Shown in pieces: positions 1-20,797 of a stretch of DNA of 64,000 bases. The stretch is from the human T2T-CHM13v2.0 reference genome, Homo sapiens. The DNA is taken from assembly GCF_009914755.1 (NCBI RefSeq), contig NC_060932.1, one strand, 5' to 3'. The position numbers and the translations under genes are program-made. Every line of letters begins with the position of its first letter. Position 1 is the first letter of the stretch. The notes below the pieces were generated by a model, which saw only the letters and a program-made list of their open reading frames with translations, was not told the origin of the DNA and ran no database searches.

Positions 1-54
1 CTGCATATTATCCTGATACGATTTCTAAAAATAATTTAACATGAAGTTTCTGTT

Positions 55-2737
55 TTAATTTTCAATGTTTGTGGGTATATAGTAGGTGTATATATTTGGG
101 GTACATGAGATATTTTGATACAGGCATGCTAAGCAAAATAATCACATCATGGAGAAAGGGGTATCCAGCCCCTCAAGCATTTATCTATTGATTTGCAAAC
201 AATCAAATTACACTCCTTATTTTAAAATGTACAACTTATTATTGATTATAGTTACCCTGTTGTGCTATCAAATAGCAGGTCTTATTCATTCTATTTTTTT
301 GTACCCATTAACTATCTCCACCTCCTTCCCAGCCCCCAACTACCCCTCTTAGCCTATAGTAACCAACCTGCTACTCTCTATATCATTGAGTTCAATTGTT
401 TTGATTTTTAGATCCTACAAATGAGTGAAAACATGTAATGTTTGTCTTTCTGTCCCTGGCTTATTTCACTTAACATAATGATCTCCAGTTCCATCCATGT
501 TGTTGCAAATGACTGGATCTCATTCTTCTTTGTGGCTGAATAGTACTCAATTGTGTATACGTACCACATTTTCTTTGTTCATTCACTTGTTGAATGAACA
601 CAGGTTGCTTCCAATTTTTAGCTATTGTTAACAGTGCTGCAACAAACATGGGAGTGCAGAGATCTCTTTGAGGTACTGATTTCCTTTCTTCTGAGTATAT
701 ACCCAGCAGTGGAATTGCTGGATCATATGGTAGCTCAATTTTTAGTTTCTGAAGAACCTACAAGCTGTTCTTCATAGTGGCTATACTAATTTACGTTCTC
801 ACCAACAGTATACAGGGTTCCCTTTTCTCCACATCCTTGCCAACATTTGTTATTACTGTCTTTTGGATATAAGCCACTTAACTGGGGTAAGATGATAACT
901 CGTTGTTTTGATTTGCATTTCTCCGATGATCAATAATGTTGAGCACCTTCTCATATACTTGTTTGCTATTTGTGTGTCTTCTTTTCAGGTGTCTATTCAA
1001 GTCTGTTGCCCCCCTTTTTTGATCAGATCATTACATTTTTTTTCTGCGGAGTTGTTTGAGCTCCTTATATAGTGTGGTTATTAATCCCTTGTCAGATGGG
1101 TAGTTTGCAAATATTTTCCACCATTCTGTAGGTTGTCTCTTCACTTTGTTGATTATATCCTTTGCTGTGCAGAAGCTTTTCAACTTGATGTGATCCCATT
1201 TATCCATTTTTGCTTTGGTTGCCTGTGCTTGTAGGATATTGTTTAAGAAATCTTTGTGAGGACAACGTTCTGGAGAGTTTCCCCAAAGTTTTCTTGTAGT
1301 AGTTTCATAGTTTAAAGCCTTGGATTTAAGCCTTTAATCCATTTTGATTTGATTTTTGTATATGGTGAGAGATAGGGGTCTAGTTTCATTCTCCTGCATA
1401 TGACTGTCCAGTTTTCCCAGCACCACTTATTGAAGAGACTGTCTTTTCCCTCAGTGTATGTTATTGGCAGCTTTGTTGAAAATGAGTTAACTGTAGGTAT
1501 GTGGATTTGTTTCTGAGTTCTCTATCTGTTCCATTGGTCCATGTGTCTTTTTTTATGAGAGTACCACGCTGTTTTGATTATTATAGCTCTGTAGTATAAT
1601 TAGAAGTCAGGTAATGTGACTCCTCCAGTTTTGTTCTTTTGCTTAGGACAGCTTTGGCTATTCTGGATCTTTTCTGGTTCTATATAAATTTTAGAATTGT
1701 TTTTTCTGTTTCTGTGAAGAATGACATTGGTATTTTGATAGGGATTGCATTGAATCTGTAGATTGCTTTGGGCAGTATGAACATTTTGACAATATTGATT
1801 ATTTCAATCCATGAACATGGACTATTTTTCCATTTTAGGTGTCCTCTTCAGTTTCTTTCATCAGTGTTTTATTGCTTTCCTTTCACTTCTGTTAAACCAA
1901 GTTCAGTCTAAAGCTGCCTCCTTACATATGTTAGGTTTGGCCTAGAGGTTTCTCTGTACATCATGAACTATAACAAGTGGAGGTGTAAGTAGACCATAGC
2001 ATACACTTGTGCGAATCACCGAATTTGGGCCCATCAAACGTTGTAACCAATCCAGCTGTTTCTGTACCTCACTTCCATTTTCTGTACATCACTTTCCTTT
2101 TTCTGTCCATAAATCATCTTTCACCACATGGCTGCGCTGGAGTCTCAGAGCCTACTCTGACTTCAGAGGCTGCCTGATTCATGAATTGTTCACTGCTCAA
2201 TTAAACTCCTTTAAATTTAATTTGGTTATAACACTTCTTTGGTGAAGTTAATTAATAGGTATATAATTTTATGTGTGGCTATTGTAAATGGAATTCCTTT
2301 TTAAATTTCTTTTTCACATTGTTAACTGTTGGCATATAGAAATGCTACTGATTTTTGTATGTTGATTTTGTATCCAGCAACTTTACTGAATTTGATTATC
2401 AGTTTTAATAGTTTTCTTGTGGAGTCTTTATCATATTATCTGCAAACAAGGATAATTTAACGTCTTCCTTTCTAATTTGGATGCCCTTCATATATTTCTC
2501 TTGTCTGATTGCTCTAGCTAGGACTGTCAGTACTATGTTGAATAACAGTTGTCATAGTGGGCATCCTTGTCATGTTCCAGATCTCAGAGGAAAGGCTTTC
2601 AGTTTTTCCCCATTCGGTATGATACTAGCTGCGGATCTGTCATTTATGGCTTTTATTATGTTGAGGTATGTGCCTTCTGTCTCCAGTTTTTTGAGGATTT
2701 TTAACATGAAGGGATGCTGAATGTTATCAAATGCATG
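55..2737 (-). mobile_element. Old L1 (L1MA-like) 3' portion with ORF2 remnant, split by an LTR at 1890-2233
   Basis: T-rich antisense L1 3'UTR/ORF2 sequence; the minus ORF 2570-2752 reads as L1 ORF2 RT ([41 protein letters not shown]). Confidence 0.9.
1890..2233 (+). mobile_element. ERV1 solo LTR, MER57-like, inserted in the L1
   Basis: TG...CA termini, 4-bp TSD CTTC (1886-1889 and 2234-2237), ATTAAA near 2200; the L1 sequence rejoins across it. Confidence 0.8.
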
Positions 2738-4285
2738 AAGTTTCTTATACAAGTCACATCTATACAGCTATACATAAAAATAGAAAAGTATTTAAATTCT
2801 TTAAAAATTTTATTCACACAAGTGAATGAGTATTCTTGTTGTTTAATAAGAACAACAAATATATGCTGGAACCCTATGTGTGTTATATTGAACATTTTCT
2901 GAATGAAGGAATAAATGAATAAAAGAGATAGTAGTAGTAGCAATAACAACAATGTCACTTAGTATTTTCCAAGTGCTTACTATGAACCAAGCATTGTTCT
3001 GAAAGAATTAGAAGTAACTTAATTCTTATAATAAGACAATTAACAGAAAAATTTTCCCAAAAAAACACCCATACTTTGCCTACTTGTGTTTATCTACTTA
3101 TTTATCTAAGTATATATGTATCTATCTCTCTAGAAAAGAATTTTTCATATATTAAGGGCTTGTTTCCTTGCCATCGAGGACAAAATCCAAACTTATAAGA
3201 CCATATTTCATGCCTCAGTGGGCATATCCAATGGTGGGTGAATAATTCCATGATTGAAAGATTATATTCCATGCATGGAATCTGACTATTCATGCTAAGG
3301 AAGCAAGGTTCCATGTCTAGGAAAACCAACTTCCATGACCAAAATCTAAGTTCCATGTCTGGAATGTCAAGTTCTGCATTTGTATGGCCATGTTCCCTTT
3401 TTGGAATTTGTGGTTCTAAACATGGAGTGTCAGTTGCCCTGCTTATATGGTCATATTCCATTCTTGGAGACTGAGATTGTATACACTGAATGGCATATTC
3501 CAAAGATAATATTCCATGCTGAAGACTAAGATTTTATACATGGAGTGGCATGTTCCATACGTGAAAGCACAGTTCTACAGTTGAGGGCCACATTCAACAC
3601 CTGGAGATGTATGATGTCATACTGAGAAAGCCATATTTTATCCACAGATAGCCAAATTCCAAACATTTAGACTCAGATTCCATATTTAGGGATCAAGTGC
3701 TAAGACTAAAACATCTCGTTTCATTCCCAGAAGTACAGGTTAGATATTTAGAAGTCCAGAGTTCAGATCTAGATGTCCAGGAACCATTTCTAGTGGGCCA
3801 GATGACATGTTTTGAGATTCAGGTTTCATCCAAGAACCTGAGGGTCCAAGCTTGGTAAAAGATACTTCACATAGGTCATAACCTGTGGCATATCTGAAAG
3901 ACTACTCCATGGCCAGAAGACAAGGATCCATATATAGCAGCTCAGGCTCTATACCTAGGTTAAGTGTGTATGCTTGGAGAGGCAGGATTTATTTCTGCAG
4001 AGACATTCCATGTCTGAATAATCAGATTCTGTGCTTGGAGAGTCAGGGTTGATATTTTTAAGGGCCACATTAAACACCTGGAAGGCCAGTGTGCCTGCTT
4101 AGAGGGCTAGATTTTATGCTGGAGATGATGGGGTCAAAGTTCTATGCCTTTAGGGCCATATCTCATGTGGAGGACCAGATTCCATGTTGTATGACCAAGT
4201 TCCATGCTTGAAGATTGAGATTTTATATATGACATATCAGATTTTGTGCCTGGGAGACTGGTTTCCATTTCTCAGAGTGGCAACA

Positions 4286-4843
4286 TGTAAGGGGTTCCTT
4301 TAAGAGATTTGGGGCTAATCAGGGAAAGAGATATGACCACAAGATGCAGTAACACCCAATAAGCTTTATTGTGTGGTGCTTAGACAGGTTGGCATAGAGG
4401 GGAAGTCCCTACAGGATGAGTCCATCCAGAGGCTTATGGTGAGTGGGCCATCATCCAGAAAAGGAGGAGGCAAGGGAACCTCGGGTTAAGGGGATAGAAG
4501 AGGGAGGCTGTGTATCTAAGTGATGTTCATTCAGCAGCATAACAGAGTGTCTCTGGGTCAGAAAACTCAGAAGGGCAGCAGCAGCACCTTGGTGTCTTAT
4601 AACCACAAGACTCTACCTTATCAATGGCTAGCAGATATTGGGTGTAGTTTCATTGAATATGCAAAGCAGGTTGGCCCTAAATGCCAAAATTATGCTTGTT
4701 TGGGAGCATTTTTAAAACAATTAAATGTGTAAAAATTTAAGTGTGAGATCAGTAGGCTTTTGAGCTAATGGTTCTCAACCAGCAGTGAAGAAATAACTTA
4801 GGGACCAATACACAGAGGCCATCTTTGGCTCATTTACATAACA
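4286..4843 (-). mobile_element. Solo LTR (probably ERVL class) inserted in the 21-bp array
   Basis: TG...CA ends, near-perfect 5-bp TSD CAACA/CAGCA, minus-strand AATAAA at 4365-4370; array periodicity stops and resumes at its ends. Confidence 0.75.
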
Positions 4844-7800
4844 CAGCATCTATAACTGAAAATTCAGGTACCAACCATGTCTAGGTTGCCAGTTTCCACA
4901 CTTGTAATATCAGTGTTCCATGTTTGATAAGTGAGAGTCTGCACACAAAGTGCCAGGCTGTATACTTGTAAGGCCACACATAGTTTGCCATATGCCTTGC
5001 ATGTGGAGTCATGTTCCATGCATGGAATTTGAGACTTCATACTGGAAATGCCAAGTTTCATGCTCATAAGTTTCCATCTTTGGAGACTGCGATTCCACAC
5101 ATGAAGTGACATGTTCCATACCTCAAGGCACAGTTCTATAAATGGGGGGTCAAGTTCAATGTCTGGAGAACTACCTTACCACACTCAAAAATTCAGGTTT
5201 TACTTATAGATGGCCAGTTTTGAACATGGAGAATTATATTCCATGTCTACAGTCAAATATCAAAACTGGAAGGTTTTATTTCAGACTTAGAAGTTCAGAT
5301 TAGATATTTTAGGCCTAGATGATCAGATTCCACAGTTGTTGGGCTACATAACATCTCTTTAAATTTTGGTTCTACCACTAGAAGGCTATGTTTTAAGCCT
5401 GGAGAAAGAGACATCAAACGGGTAGGAAGTCATGGTTTGCCTCCAAGGTCTAATTCTATGGCTAGAGGCTCTGATTCACATCTTGAATTCCAGATTCCAC
5501 ATGAGATTCTAGAAGGAGTGATTCTATAGGAATGATCCTATAGGAATGATCCTATGTGTGGAAGGGCAGGATTCACATTTGGATGGACTTTCCACGCCTA
5601 TAAAGTCAGATTCTATACTTGAAGGGTCAGGACTCATGTTTAAATAGCTACATTCAACACTTAGAGGGCCAGCCTTCATCCTTAAAGGGCTGGGTTCCAT
5701 TACAGGAAGTTTAGACCCTAAGAAAGTTATACTAAGTCTCAGTGGAGAACCAATTTTCATGCCTGATCTGGATTGCTGTATTGCACAATTGTAAGACCTT
5801 GTTTCATGCTTGGAGACTGAGATTCCACACATGAAGCACCATGTACCATTCTTGTAGGCTCAGGCTTCATGCTTGGAGATTGAGATTTCACAATCTCTGG
5901 TTCACTGCCTAGAAAACCAGGTTCCATATCTTAGGGATACAACCTCTCTAACTGAAATGTCAGGCTCTGTGCCTTGAGTGCTAAGCTTCTCACATAGAGG
6001 CAATGTTCCGTGCTTGAGGTTTAGGATTTTACAAATGGGATCAATGCTTGTAAGGCCAGGTTACATTCTTAGAGATTAAGATTCCACCTTTATAGTACCA
6101 TGTTCCATTCTCTATGTAGGGTCAGGTTCCATGTATGGAGGTAGAGTTTCCTCCCATGAGATGCCAGGTTCTTTGTTTGTAGGGCTAATTTTCATTTTCA
6201 AAGATTGAAATTTTACACATAGATATCAGGTCCCATACTTTTAATGTTAGGCTTTATGCATAGTATCATGGGTACAATGCCTAGGAAATCAGTTACCATG
6301 ACTTGGCCGAAGACTATGATTGAAATGCCAAGTTCTGTGTCTGAAATATAAGGCTCCACACATGGGAGGCCAAGTTCCATATATGTAGGTTGAGGTTCTA
6401 CCATGGAGTGTCATTTTCCATGGTAGATTTTGGGTACCCTCATAAGGAGTGTCAATTTCGTCCTTGTAGACCTAATTCCATGCTTAAAGAATAGGTATTT
6501 AAAATGTGGAGTTCCAAGTTACATGCTTTTAGAGCAAGGTTCTGTGCACAGAGATTGAAGTTCCACAAGTTGATTGTCAGGATTCATGCGTGGAGATTGA
6601 GATTCTATGCATGGTGTACCAAGTATGATGCCTGGAATCTGTGTTGCATCTTTTATAGAGCCAAAGTCTATTATTGCAACACCAGTTTCCAGGTTTGTAG
6701 TGCCACACATGTCACGCCATGTTCCATGCTTGTAGTTTGAAAGTCCACGCATTGAGATCTGGGTATCTTGTTTGAAGGGTTATGTTCAATACAGGGATCA
6801 TGGCGATTCTGCATGTGAAGTGTCAGGTTTCTTGCTTTAGGGCCAAGTTTTATGTTTGAAGATTGATATTCCATACAGAAAGTTCCAGATTCCATGTCTT
6901 AGAGACCAGGTTTCATCAACTGGACTGAAATAAACTATGTCAATGAGTGATGAGGAAATGTACATGCCAAGGTGCCGTAATCCACACTTCTGCAGTCAAG
7001 TTTCATATTTGTATATTCTAAATCTACACATGGAGTGCCAGAACCTATCATTGTTGGTCCATGTTCCCCACATGAAACATTATATTTCAGACATGGTGAG
7101 AAATGTTGTGTGCATGCAGATTTATAATCCATTTGGGTAGTAATAAGTTCCATGCTGGGAGACAAGTTTGTATGTCTTGGAGAGCCAAATTCTAGGAGTC
7201 AGACCTCATGTTCCCTGTGTGGAATGACAGTTTTAAAATGTATGAAGCCAAGTTACATGTTTGGAGATTAAGATGCCAAGCATGTTGCATGCTTCCAACT
7301 TGATGATTTAAATTACACACATGGAATTCCAAGTTCCTTTTTTGGGGATGATGTAGTCCATACCTGGAGATCAATAATCCATATATGACATGCCAATTTC
7401 CATGCTGCTAAGACCTGGTACCATGCTTGGAGATTGAAATTCCATATACTAAATGCTGTTTTCCATGCTTTTAGAAACAAGTCCGTGCTTGGAGGTTGAG
7501 AACGTATATGTGTGTTCAAAATTCCATGCCAGGGAATGAAGTTTCCTTGCCCTGGAAAGCCAAAGGCTATACCTCAAACTGCTGTTTAATGTCTAGAGTG
7601 CCAGGTTCCATTCAAATAAGACTATGTTTCATGCTTGCAGTTTGAGATTATAGATATGGAGTGCCTGGTTCTATGCTCAGTAGGCCAGGTAAAATGCTTA
7701 TTGATATCGATTCCAAACATAAAGTGCCAGTTTTCATTTTAATTGAGCAATGTTCCAATTGACCATTGGCATGGAATTTGAGATTTTACACATGGAATTC

Positions 7801-8477
7801 CATGTGGATTCATATGGTTCTGGATCATGCTTGGAGATTGAGATTTCACACATAGAGTATCAGTATAATGCTTATAGGACATGATGCCATGTCTGGTGAT
7901 TGAGATTTCAGACATGCAGCTCCAAGTTGCATAATTTTAAGGCTAGGTTATATGCTTTGAGATTGAGATTTCACATGTGGAATGCCAGGTTAAATTCTTG
8001 TTGGGCCAAATTCCATGTGTGAAGATTGATATTCCACATATCATTGGAAGTGCCAAGCTTGTAGGACCAATTTCAATGCTTGGATATTGAGATAATATCC
8101 ATGAAGCACAAAATATCATGCATAGTTTTACATAATGTAGTGCCAATTTACATAATTTGAGCATTAGACTCCATGTTTTGAATGCCAGTTTCAGTACATG
8201 TAAGGCCATATCTGTCCCATGCATGGAGATTGAGATTCCACATATGGAATGCTAGATTCCATGCTTGTGGGTTCATGTTCCATCCTTGGATTTGAGATTT
8301 CACACTAGAACTCCGGGTTCCTTTTTTTAAGGACATATACTATGCTCAGAGATTGAGACTCCTCACATGGAGAGCCAGATGCTTTGTTTTCAGTGCCAGC
8401 TTTTATGCTCAGAGATACAAATTACACAAGTAGTATAACAGGTTCCATGTTTATAGCACTTGAGATTTAGATTCCTT

Positions 8478-8878
8478 ACATTATATCGGACTGCCATAAC
8501 AAAATATCACAGGCTGCGTGGTTTAAACAACAGAAATTTATTTTCTCACAGTTCTGGAGGCTAGAAGTCCAAGATACGGTGCCAGCAAATTTGGCTTCTG
8601 GTTAGGGTTCTCTTCCTGGCTTACAGAAAACTACCTTCTCACTGTGTCCTCAAATGACCTTTCCTCTCTATGCACGCAGGTAGAGAGTGATCTCTGGTGT
8701 CTTTTCCTCTTTTTACCCCGCTTATAAGGACACCAGTCCTATAGGATTATGACCCCACCCTATAATCTTTCTCAACCTTAATTACCTCCCTAAAGGCTCT
8801 ATATCTCCAAATACAATCACATTGGGAGTCAGAGCCTTGACATATGAATTTGAGGGTGACATAATTTAGTCCATAACA
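8478..8878 (-). mobile_element. MaLR LTR (MLT1A-like) inserted in the 21-bp array
   Basis: Typical MLT1 text: ctgccataacaaaatatcacagg...aaacaacagaaatttattttctcacagttctggaggctagaagtccaagat...gtccataaca. Confidence 0.85.
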
Positions 8879-11239
8879 CATGCTGCACCAGGTATAATGC
8901 CTTGTAGGGCAGTTTCCATGTTTTGGAGAGTCAATGTCTAGGATTGAAATGCCAATTTCCATGCCTCAAATACTGGGTTTCAAGCTCATTTGGTTAAGTT
9001 TCATGCTTGTAACCCACAATGGAAGTGCCAGGTTTCATTTGTAGGTCCAAACTCCATGCTTGGCAATTGAGATTCCACACATAGAATGCCAGCTTCTGTA
9101 CTTGTATATTGGATATCCATACTTGGATATTGAGCCTCCATGCACAAAGTGCCAGGTTTGGTGCTTGTGTGGAGTTTCTGTCCTTGGAGATTGATTATAT
9201 ACATGGAATTCTAGGTTTCTTGCCAGGAAGACTGCATTCCATATGTGGAGAGTCAAAATCTATGAGATAAATATAGATTTCCATGTCTTGGGTGTCAAGA
9301 TACACACGTGATACATGTGAAGCCATTCTCTGTGCATTCACCTACTTGGACATTGGGATTAAATACATGGAATTCCAGGATCCATGACTAGGAAACCAGT
9401 TTCCAAGTTCTGGAGAGTGTGTATGTATGGCTGAAATACGAAGTTATATACCTGGAGGATCATGTTTCATGCTTGTAGAGTCAAGTTCCATGCTTTGAAA
9501 ATGACGTTCTATATATGAAGTGTCAAGTTATAAGCTTGTAAAGCTAGGTTTTATGCATGCAATTTTAGAGTTTACACATTGAATGCTAGATTCTATGCTT
9601 GTTGGGCCAGTTTTTATGTTTGGATATTGAGCATGCATATGTAGTGTAGAGTAGTCCCATGCTTGGGAGACATGAGACCATATCCTGGAGAGACAAATTT
9701 TATAACTCAGATGCAAGGTTCCAGTCTGAGGTAGCACACTCACCACAGGTAAGTTCATATCCCATACATGGAGATTTGGATTCCACACAAGTATTGCCAA
9801 GTTGCATGTTTGTGGGGCCAAGTTCCTTGACTGAACATTGTGTTTCCACTAGTGGAGTGGCAAGTCCATGCTTGTAGGGTCAGGTGTCATACTCTGAGAT
9901 GGAAATTCCACACATCAGTTTTTATGATTATAGTGCTAAATTCCATGTTTGGAGATTAAGATTACATATGTGTAGTGCAAAATTGGCGAGGTTTTGCATG
10001 TTGGATAGTCAACATGTATTCTATACCTAGATGTCTATGAGCCACATGTAGAAGTCCTGGTTCCAGACCTAGAAGGCCAAATTCTATGCCTAGAGGAGTA
10101 GGATTCATATTTGGAGCTACTTTCTGTGTCTGGAAAGTCGGATGCTGTACTTAGAGGTCTACGTTCCATGACTGAATGGCCAGGAAGGACAGATTTCATG
10201 CTTAGAGGGCTGGTTTCCACTCCTGGAGATCTAAATTCATGCTTGTAAGGCTGGATCTTATGTGAAAAACCATATTTTATGCTTGGAAAGGCATAATTTA
10301 TACCTAAAAGACATAAATTAATGCCTTAAAAACCAGATCCATAATTGGTTGGTCAGATTCCATTCCTCTAGGCTCGTGTTCTACACCTGGAGATTGAAGT
10401 TCCTTATTTGTAGGGTCAAACTCTATGTCTAGGGCCAAGTTCCATGCCTTGAGTGCAAAGCTCCATGCCTGAATGCCAGTTTTCACAAATGGATGACCAT
10501 GCTTCATGCTGGGAAGGCTGGATTATGCATCTGAAAGCTCAGGCGTCATGCCTAGTGTGTCAAGTTCCATTCATGTACTAAGATACCATAGCACAAAGGC
10601 AGATTACATACTGCAGTGACTGCAGGGTCTCTTCCCATATCTAGAAGGACAGATTTTACACTTAGAAAGACAGAATGTATGCTTGGAGGAGGCGAGTCCA
10701 CATATGTGGAGTGTGGTATATGACTGCATACAATTTTCCATGTGTAGAGGGTCCATTTTCACACTGAAGGATGGAAATGCATGGGGCCAAGTTTCATGCC
10801 CAGGTGGGAGTAGGGGGCTGTCATTCCATGCCTGCAGGACCAGATTCCATGCCTCAGGAACCAGGTTCCTATGAATGGAATGCTATTCTCAGGCTTGAAG
10901 GACCAAGTATGAAGCCTGGATTGCCTGGTATTGTGGTTAGAAGGCTAGGGCCCATGCTCCAAAATCAGGTAATCTAGCTACAACTGTATTCTAGCGGGAA
11001 GGAGAGTTTACCTCCAAATTTATTGCTACAGAAATGGCCATTCTAATTACCACACTGAGGCTGCGTTGTGATGTAAGTGACCCAAAAAATGAGCAGAAAA
11101 ACGTATGAGGCCTTCCAGGTGTTTTTATACAGTGGCACATTTAAGAAGTGCCCACAATGAATAAATTTTAAGGAGACAGTGGAAGAAAAATATGGAGTAT
11201 TTTTGTAACATACTTCCAGTATGACTGTTTGACTTAGTC

Positions 11240-11440
11240 ATTAGATTGGCAATTACTGAGTGCTAACCATGAGTCAGGTGCTTTGCTAAGTCTATAGCTG
11301 CATTGTATCATTTAGTTCCACAGGATAGTTTCGATTATTTGACAAACCAGAAAACTATGACTCAGAAAGCATTTTACTGATTTTCCCAAAGTTTCCCAGC
11401 TGGTATACAGTAGAGCAATGATATGAACTCTGATACATTT
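11240..11440. mobile_element. MIR fragment
   Basis: MIR-like text (tactgagtgctaaccatgagtcaggtgctttgctaag...aaactatgactcaga). Confidence 0.55.
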
Positions 11441-13421
11441 AATGTATTTTAAATGATAATAGGTTATGTCTGCAGTGTTGAATGAACCCAAAATGAAAAG
11501 TAGTTGGTGCTACTTCCCTTGCTGCACAGCAAGACACAGCTGCCTTTGTGGTATGATACCCATAACCTACATTTTGAACAGCAGAATAATCTTAAGTGGT
11601 ATAAAAAAGAAATGGCATATCAACTCCAGTAAGTATTCTTTCTAGCAATAAAAAAACAAGTTCTATTCAACTTCAGAGGTATGAATTTATGGTATCTATA
11701 CATGTGATATTTATAATTAGTTCTTATAAGGCAGTTTTTATCCCTGAAGCACTTTATGAAATTAACTAATTAATCTTCATCATATCCTTTAGAGAGAGAT
11801 AACTGTAGCCTATTTGCAAAGAGCCTCTGTTATGGGGCTCAAGATGATTTATGAATATTATATACAACGATAAGCAGACTCAAGGCACTTCAGATACACA
11901 CAAGCTGACAATGAGGATTTAGGATGCATTCATTCCCTAAGCAAATGTTTATTTAGTGTCATTACTATATAACCTAGGGGCTGATACCTGTAGGAGGTGA
12001 GACACTGTCTGCCTGGTTAAAGGCAGTGATCATGAGGGTGGGATGTTGTCTTTAGAAAAGACAACAAATCCCTGTTGACCTCTTTGACCCAAATATAAAA
12101 TGACTGCCATGAGGGCAGTTCACCCAAGTGCAGAGACTGCTTCTTCCTTCTGCTCACATTTTCTAACCTGCAGAGTTTATTTCTGACTTGGCTAGGACTG
12201 CCTGGAATTTACAGTGCAATCCTCTGGTATTTTCATTTCTCATCACTGGTGACGCTTCCCACTGCCACATCTCCCTGCTCATTTTCAGCCCTGTTCCAAT
12301 CCCTAGCACCACCCTCAACTACAGTCTAAAAAGAATTAAGCATCCCTAGCTCAGAGATCCAAGTTTTACTATTCCATCATCTGTCATGGTAGTCTAACAC
12401 CAAAGTACTAATACTTTCCTTTTTAACTATGCTAGTGTCTTATCTTACTTGAGGTTCCCTAGAAGCAGAGTCTGAAATGATTGGGCAAATAATTTATAGT
12501 CAAAATGCTCTCAGAAGAAACCAGTCAGGGAGTGAGAAAACCAGAGTAGTACAGGAATTTGAGCAACAGTTTAGGAATAAGTCTAGCCTCAGCCTGATCT
12601 CCTGACCCCAAGGGTGCAATTCTCATTCCAGAGGTAAGGGGAATATGTTACTAAAATAGGTCTGCAGAAGTCAATTTTTGGATTGACCTCCCTCCACGAG
12701 GGACCAGGTCCACAACTGGGATATCTCTAGGTAAGATGGTGCTCATCAGTAGAAAGTTTGTCAGCAGCCAACACCTGCAGTACCTGGGGGACAGGTGCAC
12801 TGGCCTGGCAAAGGGCATCTGGGCAAAGCACCACCACCATTGGCTCCAGCCCACTTGGCACCACTCAGATTTATTTACCGCTTGTATTAAGTTTTCTCAA
12901 TATACTCACAGCTTCTTCTGGTTTTGGTTTAGTCATAATTTCTGAGTAAAAATTACAAGATGAAAACTAGTGAGACAAACTACAGCCCCGCTGTTGCTAT
13001 TGGTCCTGAAAAAGCAAGTGAAACTCATGATGACCTTTCTTTACCACTATTCTTTATTGCTTTCAATCTCAGTTCATATGTCTGATGGCCTAGGTGGCTT
13101 GCCTGCTGGCTGGCCTAGGCTCACATCCCTGAGGGTTCTGAGCCCTTGATTACCATATGCTTATCAGGCCATAGTTGAATTTGCCCATTTTAATTAAAAT
13201 TGGACTTGGGAGGTGACCTAGAGATGCCTAGTGGATAATGTGTTTGCCAAGCATATTTCTCCCTGCCTCTCTTGTACACCACCAGCCTTATATTCTCACG
13301 ATTATCCACATGGTATCTCATTTCTTTGTCTGCTGGTCTATTGAAACTATAATCCCAAAGTAAATAGGTAGCACAGGTAACAGCCACAGCTTTGTGTTTA
13401 GTAAAACTTTTACTGAGTCCT

Positions 13422-14020
13422 AACTAGTTCAACCATTGTGGAAGACAGTGTGGCGATTCCTCAAGGATCTAGAACTAGAAATACCATTTCACCCAGCCAT
13501 CCCATTGCTGGATATATACCCAAAGGAATATAAATCGTGCTGCTATAAAGACACATGCCACGTATGTTTATTGTGGCACTATTCACAATAGCAAAGACCT
13601 GGAACCAACCAAAATGTCCATCAATGATAGACTGGATTAAGAAAATGTGGCACATATACACCATGGATTACTATGCAGCCATAAAAAAGGATGAGTTCAT
13701 GTCCTTTGTAGGGACATGGATGAAGCTGGAAACCATCATTCTCAGCAAACTATCGCAAGGACACAAAACCAAACACCAGATGTTCTCACTCATAGGCGGG
13801 AATTGAACAATGAGAACACTTGGACACAGGAAGGAGAACATCACACACTGGGGCCTGTCATGGGGTGGGGGGAGGGGGGAGGGATAGCATTAGGAGATAT
13901 ACCTAATGTAAATGATGAGTTAATGGGTGCAGCACACCAACATGTTGCATGTATACGTATGTAACAAACCTGCACGTTGTGCACATGTACCCTAGAACTT
14001 AAAGTACAATAAAAAAAATA
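13422..14020 (+). mobile_element. 5'-truncated L1PA with poly(A)
   Basis: L1 ORF2 C-terminus (MFIVALFTIAKTWNQPKCPSMIDWIKKMWHIY...SLIGGN), 3'UTR, A tail; 19-bp TSD AAAACTTTTACTGA(G/A)TCCT at 13403-13421 and 14021-14039. Confidence 0.95.
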
Positions 14021-15628
14021 AAAACTTTTACTGAATCCTTTGGTGAAAGTATTCCCTTTCCAGGAACTAGGATCTTCATTCCTGCAGAGTCTAAACTTAC
14101 AGAGGTGAGAAACACAAATTCCGCAAGTAGGTCACTGGGAATGATTGTGACTCGGGCCATTTCTATTTCTGTGACTTAGTTTCTAGATCCAAGTGTTCTA
14201 TCTGTTGGGAACACAATACCATGTAAAGGTTGTTGATTTCAGGCATTTACCCTGAAGAAGAGTGCTACACATTTGCAGGTATATTGCATCTGTAAACAAT
14301 ATGTTGTAGGAGCAGTGGGTCCTCCCATCATCATGTGACCACTACTGTTCCTCCTTTACTATAAAGTGAGTCTCTTGGTCCAAGGCAATGTCATATAGGA
14401 TATCATTTTTTCTTAAAGCCAGTACTCTGGTGATGGTACTGTTTGAAGCACTATGGAAAGGACAGGTTAACCCATATTTCTATCTCTTTTTCAGGGAAGA
14501 AGTAGTCCATGTAATCAAGTTGCTACCAGCTGTCTGATTTATCTCCTTAAAGGATGATCCCATATCAAGGGCTCAGGGGTGCCCTTTCTTATTGGTCAGA
14601 TATTTAGCAGTGGCATTAGCTAGATCATCCCTGGTGAGAAGGCACCTATAGCTTCGGGCCCATGCATAGTCTCCATTTTTGAAACCACACCTGCTCCATT
14701 GATGAGCACATTGCACAAGCACAGGGGTAGACAAGGACAGAGGTGACAGGCAAGAAATCTTATTCACCTGGCGGTTCAGTGCCTCATCTGCACTGAATGT
14801 TTTCTGGCAGGCATTAATGTAGAATAAAGATATTCACATTTTGTGCCCACTTCCCCAGGTATACCAAGGTGCCTTTTACTTAGACCTCATTGCCCCCAGT
14901 CTTCTTATGTTGCTTCTTCCAGGTCACTGATGAATCAGTGAAGCCATTTATCACTACCCATGATTCTATGTAAAGTCTTAACTCGGACCATTTTTCTTTC
15001 CATACAAATACATTATGAGGTTCTCTGTCAAAGAGCTCTGTTCTTTGGGAGGAGCTTACCTCACCACTGTCTTTTAGGGCCACCCATGTGTTAGGATGTA
15101 GTTAATCATCAGTCCATTTTCAACCTGCAGAACATACTGGGCTAAACCAACTTTGAGCCAAGCCTGCATTTTTTTCCTCCTCTGTCACCTGATCTTAGGG
15201 AGCCCTACAGACTATAGTGAGAGCTGAAGGAGAGGTATTGGTTCAAAAGTGCTGGATGTAGAAGGTTTGGCTCACCTGTTCTTCTAGATTACTCTTGCCT
15301 TCTAGACATACTGAAGCCCAATCCCAAATATTCCACCTCCCCTGGAAGACGGATTTCTGCTGATCATATGACAGTGAGTCTGACGGAACTCAGTTCAGGG
15401 TAGATAGCTCAGGGTTTATGGTAAACTAATGTCCCATAATCATGAGCTCACTATCCACTAGGGCCCATAAACTTGCCAAAAGATGCTTTCTAATTCTTCA
15501 TATAGTTCTCTGCTGCAGGCAACATGGCCTGCATCCTGAACCTTAGGCATCTGTAATGTGATTCTCTTATTAGGCCTTGCTGGAAATTCCACACAGAAAG
15601 CTCTACTACCATGGAATCCATTGGGTCA

Positions 15629-18939: not shown

Positions 18940-20797
18940 GTATTTATTTATTTATTTCATTAGTTAATTTAAAGATTCAGGGGGTACCTGTGCAGGTGTG
19001 TTACATGGGTTTATTGTGTGATTCTGAGGTTTAGGCTTCTAATGATTCCATCACCCAAGTAGCAAACATGGTACCCAATAGGTAGTTTTTCAACTCTCTC
19101 TCTTCTTTTAGAATCACCAGTATTTATTGGCCCTATTTTTGTGTCCATGAGTACCTAGCATTTAGCCCCTACTTGTAAATGAGAACACATAATACATGGT
19201 TTTATGTTTCTGTGTTAATTTGTTTAGGATAATGGCCTCCAGCAGCCTTCATGTTGCTGCAAAACACATGATTTCATTATTTTTTTATGGCTGTGTAGTA
19301 CTCCATGGTGCATATATATCACATTTTAAAAATTCAGTCTACCATTGATGGACATCTCAGTTGATTCATGTCTTTGTTATTGTGAATAGTGCAGTGGTGA
19401 ATATATGAGTACATGTGTCTTTGGGGTAAAATGGTTTATTTTCCTTTGGGCATATACCCAGTAATTGAATTGCTGGGTCAAATGGTAGTTCTATTTTTAG
19501 TTCTATGAAAAATATCCAAACTGCTTTCCACAGTGGCTGAATTAGTTTACATTCCCATCAATTGTGTATAAGCTTCCTTTTTCTCCACAACTGTGCCAAC
19601 ATCTGTTATTTTTTAACTTTTTAATAATAGCCATTCTGACTGGTGTGAGATGGTATCTCATTGTGATTTTGATTTGCATCTCTCTCTCATTATTAGTGAT
19701 GATGAGCATTTTTTCATATGCTGGTTATCCATTTGTATGTCTTCTTTTGAAAAGTGTCTGTTCTTGTCCTTTGCCTACTTCTTAATGGGGTGGTTTGTTT
19801 GTTTTATAAATTTGTTTAAGTCCCTAATAGATGCTGGATGTTAGACTTCTGTTACATGCATATTTCTCCATTCTGTATGTTGTCTGTTTACTCTGTTGAT
19901 AATTTCTTTTGCTGTGCAGAAGCTCTTTAGCTTAATTAAGTCTCACTTGTCAATTTTCATTTTTGTTGTGTTTGCTTTTGAAGACTTAGTCATAAATTCT
20001 CTGCCTAGGCCTATGTCTACAAGAGTATTTCCTAGGTTTTCTTCTAGGATTTTTATAGTTTGAGGGCTTAAACCTTAATGCTTAAACCTAAGCCCTAAAT
20101 ATTTAGTTCATCTTGAGTTGATTTTTTATTTTTATTTTTTTTTGAGACAGGGTCTTGCTCTGTCACCCAGGCTGGAATGCAGTGGTGCCATCATGGCTCA
20201 CTGCAACCTCCGTCCCTCAGGCTCAAGCGATCCTCCCACCTCGGCCTCCTGAGTAGCTAGGACCATAGGTGTGCATCACCATGCCTAGATATTTTGTTTG
20301 TTTTGTATTTTTAGTAGAGACAGGGCCTCACCATGTTGCCCAGGCTGGTCTTGGATTCCTGAGCTCGAGAGATCCACTTGCTGCAGCCTCCCAAAGTGCT
20401 GGATTACAGGTGTGAGCCACCGTGCCCAGCCTTGAGTTGATTTTTCTAGATGGTGAGAGGTAAGAGTCCAGTTTCATTTTTTTTGCACATGGTTAGCCTG
20501 TTTTCCCAGCACTATTTACCAAATACAGTATCCTTTCCCCATTGTTTATTTTTGCCAATCTTGTCAAAGATCTGTTGGTTGTAGGTGTGTGGCTTTATTT
20601 CAAGGGTCTCTATTCTGTTCCGTTGGTCTATGTGTCTATTTCTGTATCACTGTTTTGGTTACTATAACCTGGTATCGTTTGAAGTTGAGTGATGTGATCC
20701 CTCTGGCTTTATTCTTTTTTCTTAGGATTGCATTAGCTATTCAGCCTTTTTTTTTTTTTGGTTCTGTATGAAATTTAGAATAATTTTTCTAATTCCC
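18940..20797 (-). mobile_element. L1 (L1PA/PB-type) 3' portion, split by an Alu
   Basis: Antisense L1 3'UTR/ORF2 text (aatagccattctgactggtgtgagatggtatctcattgtg). Confidence 0.9.
20124..20431 (-). mobile_element. Alu (AluJ-like)
   Basis: Full dimer antisense, T-tail, TSD TTGAGTTGATTTTT on both sides. Confidence 0.9.

What the first reader, a model, noticed from the sequence alone, without database searches (positions are those of the whole stretch)
3160..10960. Cryptic ~7.8-kb degenerate 21-bp tandem array upstream of NECAB1
Seen: an apparently unique stretch is periodic. TTCCA-type anchors fall at 3246, 3267, 3288, 3309, 3331, 3351, 3372, 3393, 3414, 3456 and 3498, and the core TTCCATGCTTGGAG recurs through to ~10960. 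Net of the two LTRs this is ~6.8 kb, or roughly 325 units. It matches no Alu, L1, LTR or classical satellite family I recognise. Inference: the units are so diverged that standard tandem-repeat tracks may miss most of it, so it may be unannotated.
Basis: seen in the sequence. Interest (0 to 1): 0.85.

Follow-up and report, generated by a model that had tools for sequence, protein, structure and literature searches.

The report
Fossil 21-bp satellite array near NECAB1
A 7.8-kb stretch upstream of NECAB1 is the worn-down remains of a very old tandem repeat built from 21-base units, with one sister array on chromosome 1, and it looks like a neutral genomic fossil, not a working element.

Summary
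Window 3131-10959 is a same-strand, very degenerate 21-bp tandem array. Its lag-21 autocorrelation lies 22 to 24 SD above shuffles. It holds about 332 units and is split by two dispersed-repeat insertions, at 4290-4860 and 8485-8880. Default TRF covers only 194 of 7800 bases.

New here:
- The array is hierarchical. A 63-bp period shows in parts of it. A block of about 0.86 kb, roughly 41 units, recurs at 58-66% identity, against about 50% between arbitrary in-phase units.
- In T2T-CHM13 I found exactly one sister array, at chr1:205,410,766-205,415,761 (about 241 units). It shares the same block, but its flanks are not homologous.
- Block copies form a star tree with end branches of 0.24-0.34 substitutions per site. 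Identity is the same within and between loci.
- CpG o/e is 0.10. No ORF exceeds the shuffles, and there is no Pfam or Rfam hit. Decay follows base composition, not codon position.

Best reading, at 0.75: a relic of a satellite amplified on the order of 100-200 Myr ago, seeded at two loci, and decaying neutrally since.

I could not test whether Dfam/RepeatMasker already names it, or whether other mammals keep it. Interest is modest.

The parts
3131..4289 (+). Array segment 1 of degenerate 21-bp units. It contains block copy 3421-4277.
   Evidence: Local lag-21 excess. The block HMM matches 3131-3322 and 3421-4277. No array signal in the 8 kb upstream of the window or in window 1-3100.
4290..4860 (.). 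Insertion 1: a dispersed repeat of about 570 bp that interrupts the array. It looks like an LTR (TG...CA ends); the family was not identified.
   Evidence: Periodicity drops to background here. The genome search's word-based first pass gave 187 candidate copies; the 39 other copies scored are 68-75% identical.
4861..8484 (+). Array segment 2. It contains block copy 4979-5848 and the start of the stretch with the 63-bp period.
   Evidence: Permissive TRF rows with period 63 at 7355-7529 and 7596-8454.
8485..8880 (.). Insertion 2: a dispersed repeat of about 400 bp that interrupts the array. I recall it as a MaLR (MLT1-type) LTR on the minus strand; this was not library-tested.
   Evidence: Periodicity gap. 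A block-HMM alignment, 8180-9105, spans the insertion. 5362 first-pass candidates; the 39 other copies scored are 73-77% identical.
8881..10959 (+). Array segment 3. It contains the weaker block copy 9577-10280. The array ends at about 10959.
   Evidence: Permissive TRF rows with period 63 at 9014-9218 and 9426-9618.
3421..4277 (+). Best-preserved block of about 0.86 kb (about 41 units) in the window.
   Evidence: Used as a single-sequence nhmmer query, 3420-4289 scores 207 bits to 4979-5840. On chr1 it scores 270 bits to 205414843-205415761 and 184 bits to 205413732-205414437. Most other array stretches score 12-56 bits. Alignment.
4979..5848 (+). Second block copy.
   Evidence: 58-64% identity to the other four block copies over 443-830 aligned bases.

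Best explanation
This is the relic of an ancient satellite, meaning non-coding tandem DNA.

Proposed history:
1. A 21-bp motif was amplified head-to-tail by slippage and unequal exchange. This step is inferred.
2. Its units diverged, in places into a 63-bp three-unit period. The period is shown.
3. A block of about 41 diverged units, roughly 0.86 kb, was then amplified in a single burst. The star tree shows this.
4. Block-bearing array DNA came to lie at two unlinked places, 8q upstream of NECAB1 and 1q. The two loci are shown. The route, for example duplication or re-insertion of excised array DNA, is inferred.
5. Amplification and homogenisation then stopped. Both arrays have since decayed by ordinary point mutation, small indels and insertions of dispersed repeats.

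The array lies in an intron of the predicted lncRNA LOC105375633. I see no sign that it does anything today.
For: - Strong same-strand 21-bp periodicity. A 63-bp period in parts of the array (unit lag 3 gives 0.511 against about 0.475 for other lags).
- Block homology across both loci.
- The five block copies are 58-66% identical to each other, with no difference within versus between loci. The tree is star-like: end branches of 0.24-0.34, inner branches of 0.017 or less, with weak support.
- Only two loci were found in the genome. Three DNA searches returned only chr8 and chr1.
- A 22-mer scan gave 67 hits, 16 of them in the two arrays.
- A two-unit degenerate pattern gave 271 hits. All 36 hits with up to 2 mismatches were listed: 23 lie in the arrays and 13 are singletons.
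- 0 of 24 singleton loci that I fetched are periodic.
- Neutral-decay signs: CpG o/e is 0.10 in the chr8 array and 0.15 in the chr1 array, against 0.20 in the rest of the window. The longest ORF in the chr8 array is 124 aa, against a shuffle mean of 114 and maximum of 157.
- Positions whose consensus is A or T keep about 0.70 identity and G or C positions about 0.60, with no 3-base rhythm.
- The array is older than both insertions, whose best-matching copies elsewhere are only 68-77% identical.
Against: - No other species could be examined, so conservation or constraint is untested.
- Per-phase identity correlates with the information content of the unit profile (Spearman 0.50, p 0.02). I attribute this to A/T positions decaying more slowly than G/C positions, but weak selection on the TTCCAT core is not excluded, and alignment bias favours the core.
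- The way the array reached a second chromosome is not shown. The flanks share no detectable homology, so a plain segmental duplication that included flanking DNA is not supported.
- The scans would miss small or more diverged relatives. 171 of the 271 pattern hits were not listed.
Confidence: 0.75

Rival explanations
1. The array is the internal tandem-repeat region of an old, low-copy mobile element such as a DNA transposon, a Helitron-like element or a non-autonomous LTR element. Two copies landed on chr8 and chr1 and their ends have since eroded.
For: There are two unlinked copies of similar size (about 6.9 and 5.0 kb net) with the same internal block and orientation. Their flanks are unrelated, as expected after transposition. 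A 13-bp direct repeat with 1 mismatch lies near both edges of the chr1 array (3.7% of shuffles score as high).
Against: - Only two copies exist despite four genome-wide searches tuned to the units.
- No inverted-repeat hits inside 3000-11200 (0 of 26).
- The sequence next to the array edges is not homologous between the loci.
- No flank repeat at the chr8 array (24% of shuffles score as high).
- The chr1 repeat sits about 50 bp away from the left edge.
- No transposase or gag-pol domain in the 8 longest ORFs.
Confidence: 0.1
2. The array is a functional tandem array kept by selection. It could be a multi-site platform for a DNA-binding protein or a chromatin-organising repeat (in the manner of DXZ4 or FIRRE), or a repeat domain of the overlapping lncRNA, acting on NECAB1 or its neighbours.
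For: The TTCCAT core is the best-kept part of the unit (nearly invariant columns). The array has stayed about 7 kb long and lies 21.6 kb upstream of the NECAB1 start, inside the LOC105375633 span (hub annotation).
Against: - Core retention is matched by a simple difference between A/T and G/C positions.
- CpG is almost gone.
- Units average about 48-50% identity to each other.
- Two transposon insertions were tolerated.
- The annotated exons of the lncRNA lie outside the array (hub annotation).
- No Rfam family matched.
Confidence: 0.07
3. The array is the fossil of a protein-coding exon that encoded a 7-residue (21-bp) repeat protein lost in the human lineage.
For: 21 bp is seven codons. By my hand reading of the 63-bp consensus printed, four of six frames are free of stops. 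Stop counts per frame (106-125) are below those of mononucleotide shuffles (about 140.5).
Against: - Every frame of both arrays has 62 or more stops. The longest ORF in the chr8 array is within the shuffle range, and the shuffle test was run on that array only.
- No Pfam match reaches its cut-off in the 8 longest ORFs.
- No codon-position rhythm in the divergence between block copies.
- A low stop count follows from the unit consensus alone.
Confidence: 0.03

Closest known systems
Decayed tandem repeats in euchromatin, the class targeted by tools such as ULTRA or tantan (known to me from memory; no paper on them was read here)
   Same: Head-to-tail units so diverged (about 50% between units) that default TRF reports 2.5% of the array. 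Non-coding, CpG-depleted, and interrupted by later transposon insertions.
   Different: It is unusually long for this degree of decay, at about 6.9 kb net. It has a recognisable second level, a block of about 0.86 kb. It has exactly one sister array on another chromosome.
Higher-order-repeat satellites such as alpha satellite (recalled)
   Same: Hierarchical build: small units, then a multi-unit block that was itself amplified.
   Different: The unit is 21 bp, not about 171 bp. The location is not centromeric. There is no ongoing homogenisation: block copies are about 58-66% identical, not near-identical. The total size is in kb, not Mb.
Human satellites 2 and 3, the (CATTC)n family (recalled)
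   Same: They share the short ATTCC/GGAAT word within the unit core.
   Different: There is no 5-bp periodicity (lag 5 z -1.6). The period is 21 bp. The location is euchromatic.
Multi-locus minisatellite families and tandem repeats carried by transposons, such as MSR1 or the SVA VNTR (recalled)
   Same: A short-unit array present at more than one locus.
   Different: Only two loci. No recognisable carrier element or shared termini. Far older and more diverged.

Membership tests
Satellite / tandem-repeat DNA | Head-to-tail units on one strand, with periodicity above composition-matched chance | tested here: met
   Lag-21 z is 24.3 against mononucleotide shuffles and 22.3 against dinucleotide shuffles. 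0 of 26 internal hits are inverted. 332 units were parsed.
Satellite / tandem-repeat DNA | Higher-order structure | tested here: met
   Period-63 rows under permissive TRF. A block of about 0.86 kb shared by 5 copies at 58-66% identity.
Human satellite 2/3, (CATTC)n | 5-bp periodicity | tested here: not met
   Lag 5 match rate 0.252, z -1.6.
LTR retrotransposon / endogenous retrovirus internal region | A pair of similar LTRs in direct orientation bounding the region | tested here: not met
   No self-hit joins 4290-4860 with 8485-8880, or the array flanks with each other. The two insertions belong to different repeat families with different copy numbers.
LTR retrotransposon / endogenous retrovirus internal region | Traces of gag, pol or env coding sequence | tested here: not met
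   No Pfam family reached its cut-off in the 8 longest ORFs of both arrays. Shorter ORFs were not scanned.
DNA transposon | Terminal inverted repeats and target-site duplication | tested here: not met
   0 minus-strand self-hits in 3000-11200. The flank comparison is not significant at chr8 (24% of shuffles as high) and marginal at chr1 (3.7% of shuffles as high, and the repeat is misplaced).
Any named Dfam/Repbase repeat family | Full-length match to the library consensus or HMM | not testable with these tools
   No repeat library was available. Of five literature searches sent, one timed out and the other four named no such repeat, including one with unit words.
Protein-coding heptad-repeat gene or pseudogene | An open frame, or codon-position-dependent divergence | tested here: not met
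   62-125 stops per frame. The longest ORF in the chr8 array is within the shuffle range; shuffles were run for that array only. Mean identity by phase mod 3 is 0.61, 0.68 and 0.64, which is explained by A/T content.

The most novel reading that the evidence does not exclude
The chr8 and chr1 arrays are the last traces of an undescribed Mesozoic satellite family. They have been retained across placental mammals because the tandem TTCCAT-core units act together, as a protein-binding or chromatin-organising array upstream of NECAB1. Alternatively, they mark ancient heterochromatin such as a former centromere.
Probability: 0.06. Interest if true: 0.6.

Novelty: new member of a known kind. Interest (0 to 1): 0.3.

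Why it matters
Its main value is as a clean example of how much old tandem DNA standard tracks miss. A 7-kb array is 97% invisible to default TRF, yet a simple autocorrelation finds it at z above 20.

The two-locus, star-tree structure gives a dated snapshot of a satellite that died long ago. It could serve as a test case for tools that detect decayed repeats, and as a neutral-rate marker.

The array would become biologically interesting only if comparative or epigenomic data showed constraint. None of the evidence here points that way.

Tried and rejected
- A covariance or sequence model of the 63-bp unit (R1) could not be run on the genome, because the tool does not take models for this genome. 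I used patterns instead.
- One genome search with the whole chr1 array was swamped by a dispersed repeat of about 340 bp inserted in it, and told me nothing about the family.
- An ungapped dot plot of chr8 against chr1 was too sparse to read at this divergence.
- Unit-lag analysis did not show the 41-unit block as a global period, because most blocks are truncated or rearranged.
- A search for target-site duplications at the array edges was negative at chr8 and marginal at chr1.
- The apparent pattern that blocks end at a common model position while starting at variable positions cannot be trusted. The model end was set arbitrarily by where insertion 1 cuts my query, and generic units align anywhere. 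I draw nothing from it.
- I sent five literature searches. One, on the unit length, timed out. The other four found nothing on this repeat: unit words, decayed-repeat tools, NECAB1 with repeat terms and ancient satellites. Only the search listings were seen; no paper was read.
Full report
**The observation**

Reading the sequence shows TTCCA-type words every 21 bases.

Over 3160-10960 the base-match rate is 0.374 at lag 21 (z 24.3), 0.340 at lag 42 (z 18.4), 0.333 at lag 63 (z 14.4) and 0.298 at lag 84 (z 8.0), against 50 mononucleotide shuffles. With 100 dinucleotide-preserving shuffles the lag-21 excess is 0.122, against a mean of -0.0003, SD 0.0055 and maximum 0.018, giving z 22.3. All 46 sliding 7.8-kb windows that start at 11001 or later lie between -0.011 and +0.012.

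A 400-bp sliding profile places the array at about 3100-10900, with two holes at about 4290-4860 and 8485-8880. There is no array signal in window 1-3100 or in the 8 kb upstream of the window.

It has 30 matches with up to 2 mismatches, all within 3267-10837, where 0.88 are expected.

A cyclic 21-state Viterbi parse gives 332 units in 6863 bp net of the insertions. It scores 1628, against about -1861 for shuffles. All 26 internal BLAST pairs are on the same strand.

**Why it is cryptic**

- Default TRF covers 194 of 7800 bases.
- The session's TRF tool gives only five short rows inside the array.
- Permissive TRF (2 3 5 75 20 30) covers 4119 of 7800 bases. Its best row is 7596-8454, with period 63, 13.3 copies and 55% matches.
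- An alignment of 48 63-bp stretches has a mean column identity of 52% and no invariant column.

**Structure above the unit**

In the chr8 array, units three apart are slightly more alike (0.511) than units at other spacings (about 0.475). This agrees with the period-63 TRF rows between about 7355 and 9618.

I used 3420-4289 as a single-sequence nhmmer query. It gave near-full-length matches at these places:

| Place | Score |
|---|---|
| window 4979-5840 | 207 bits |
| window 9577-10280 | 97 bits |
| second locus (chr1), 205414843-205415761 | 270 bits |
| second locus (chr1), 205413732-205414437 | 184 bits |
| second locus (chr1), 205410765-205411236 | 99 bits |

Most other array stretches score 12-56 bits.

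A MAFFT alignment of five copies is convincing by eye. It shows block-specific stretches shared by all the copies. Pairwise identity among the five is 58-66% over 360-842 bases. Pairs involving the other array stretches show about 50%, which is the level of any two in-phase units.

So a block of about 0.86 kb, roughly 41 units, was itself copied. Most blocks are now truncated or rearranged, and the block does not show up as a global period.

**A sister array**

The window is T2T-CHM13 chr8:91,884,001-91,948,000. A search of that genome found related DNA only at chr1:205.41 Mb.

That region has the same 21-bp periodicity from about 205,410,766 to 205,415,761. It holds about 241 units in 4981 bp net. 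It is interrupted by a dispersed repeat of about 340 bp.

The evidence for further loci is negative:
- Three DNA searches, from chr8 and reciprocally from chr1, return only these two places. One search had 6 first-pass candidates, all scored, and all 22 matches fall in the two arrays.
- A 22-mer scan with up to 3 mismatches gave 67 hits, against 13 for the control. 16 lie in the two arrays. At least 12 belong to an unrelated dispersed repeat.
- A 32-place pattern spanning two units, with up to 3 mismatches, gave 271 hits, against 38 for the control. My script predicted 51 in the two arrays. The remainder is balanced, about 106 forward and 114 reverse.
- All 36 pattern hits with up to 2 mismatches were listed. 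23 are in the arrays and 13 are lone hits.
- I fetched 24 lone loci. None of the 24 shows periodicity comparable to the arrays. 0 of the first 20 have a unit-HMM hit. The other 4 show only the two-unit seed match itself, with no neighbouring units.

There are limits to this. 171 of the 271 pattern hits were not listed, and small or more diverged relics would be missed.

The DNA next to the array edges is not homologous between chr8 and chr1. The only shared flank pieces are distant common repeats, which I recognise from memory as L1.

**Age and mode of decay**

The five block copies form a star tree. End branches are 0.24-0.34 substitutions per site, and inner branches are 0.017 or less with weak support. 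The chr8 and chr1 copies are not significantly separated.

Identity is the same within a locus (0.64 and 0.65 for the long pairs) as between loci (0.63-0.66 for the long pairs). So the blocks arose in one burst, were distributed to both loci at about that time, and have not been homogenised since.

At commonly used mammalian neutral rates, which I recall at roughly 1-2.2e-9 per site per year, 0.25 substitutions per site implies on the order of 100-200 Myr. This is an inference.

The array predates both insertions. The best other copies of insertion 2 are 73-77% identical, from 39 scored out of 5362 candidates. The best other copies of insertion 1 are 68-75% identical, from 39 scored out of 187 candidates. 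A block alignment runs across insertion 2.

CpG o/e is 0.10 in the chr8 array and 0.15 in the chr1 array, against 0.20 in the rest of the window.

**Function tests**

- Every frame has 62-125 stops. The longest ORF in the chr8 array, 124 aa, lies within the shuffle range (mean 114, maximum 157, run for that array only). The longest in the chr1 array is 164 aa.
- The 8 longest ORFs give no Pfam match at or above a family cut-off.
- No Rfam family reaches its gathering score in 2500-11500.
- Among block copies, identity per unit position ranges from 0.53 to 0.82 and correlates with profile information (rho 0.50, p 0.02). Positions with an A or T consensus average about 0.70 and those with G or C about 0.60. 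There is no 3-base rhythm. This is what AT-biased neutral mutation predicts. It does not require selection, but it does not strictly exclude weak selection on the core.

**Conclusion**

The best explanation, at 0.75, is a fossil hierarchical satellite (21 bp, then locally 63 bp, then a block of about 0.86 kb). It survives at two loci and is decaying neutrally.

| Rival | Confidence | Main point against |
|---|---|---|
| Internal repeat region of a low-copy mobile element | 0.10 | No termini, no further copies |
| Selected binding or chromatin array | 0.07 | No positive evidence |
| Fossil heptad-repeat exon | 0.03 | No frame, no domain |

Two things stay open. No repeat library or literature record could be matched, so I cannot say whether a catalogue already names it. 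Of five literature searches, one timed out and four gave listings that name no such repeat. No other species could be examined either.

Noticed in passing
G000 chr1:205,410,766-205,415,761 (L009:766-5761): This is the sister array of the same 21-bp family. It holds about 241 units and shares the 0.86-kb block. Units 10, 20 and 30 apart are slightly more alike (0.517, 0.508, 0.507), which hints at a local 210-bp period not seen on chr8.
   Followed up: partly
L009:2850-3190: A dispersed repeat of about 340 bp is inserted in the chr1 array. The search gave 6157 first-pass candidates, and the 39 other copies scored are 77-82% identical. It is younger than the array. Its family was not identified.
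   Followed up: partly
L009:700-770 and 5760-5810: A 13-bp direct repeat with 1 mismatch lies near both edges of the chr1 array; 3.7% of shuffles score as high. The left flank resembles a truncated MIR core, by recall. Two minus-strand Alu-like elements with poly-T follow the right edge.
   Followed up: partly
window 5514-5555 and 3453-3557: Two younger local duplications lie inside the old array: a 14-bp unit repeated 3 times at 92% identity, and a 55-bp unit repeated 1.9 times at 82%.
   Followed up: no
window 1-1300, 13420-14033, 19161-19977: These fragments are related to each other at 68-70% identity. They resemble the 3' part of L1 ORF2, by recall. The copy at 387-745 is inverted relative to the one at 13469-13828. 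They are common repeats, not termini of the array.
   Followed up: partly
G000 chr8:1,137,526 and 1,137,771 (L042): Two 3-mismatch hits of the 22-mer lie 245 bp apart in subtelomeric 8p. The locus has no unit-HMM hit and no 21-bp periodicity. It is probably a different local repeat.
   Followed up: partly
window 2059-2110: TRF reports a 21-bp unit repeated 2.5 times at 87% identity, with a different consensus, 1 kb left of the array. The unit HMM does not match it. It is probably a coincidence.
   Followed up: partly
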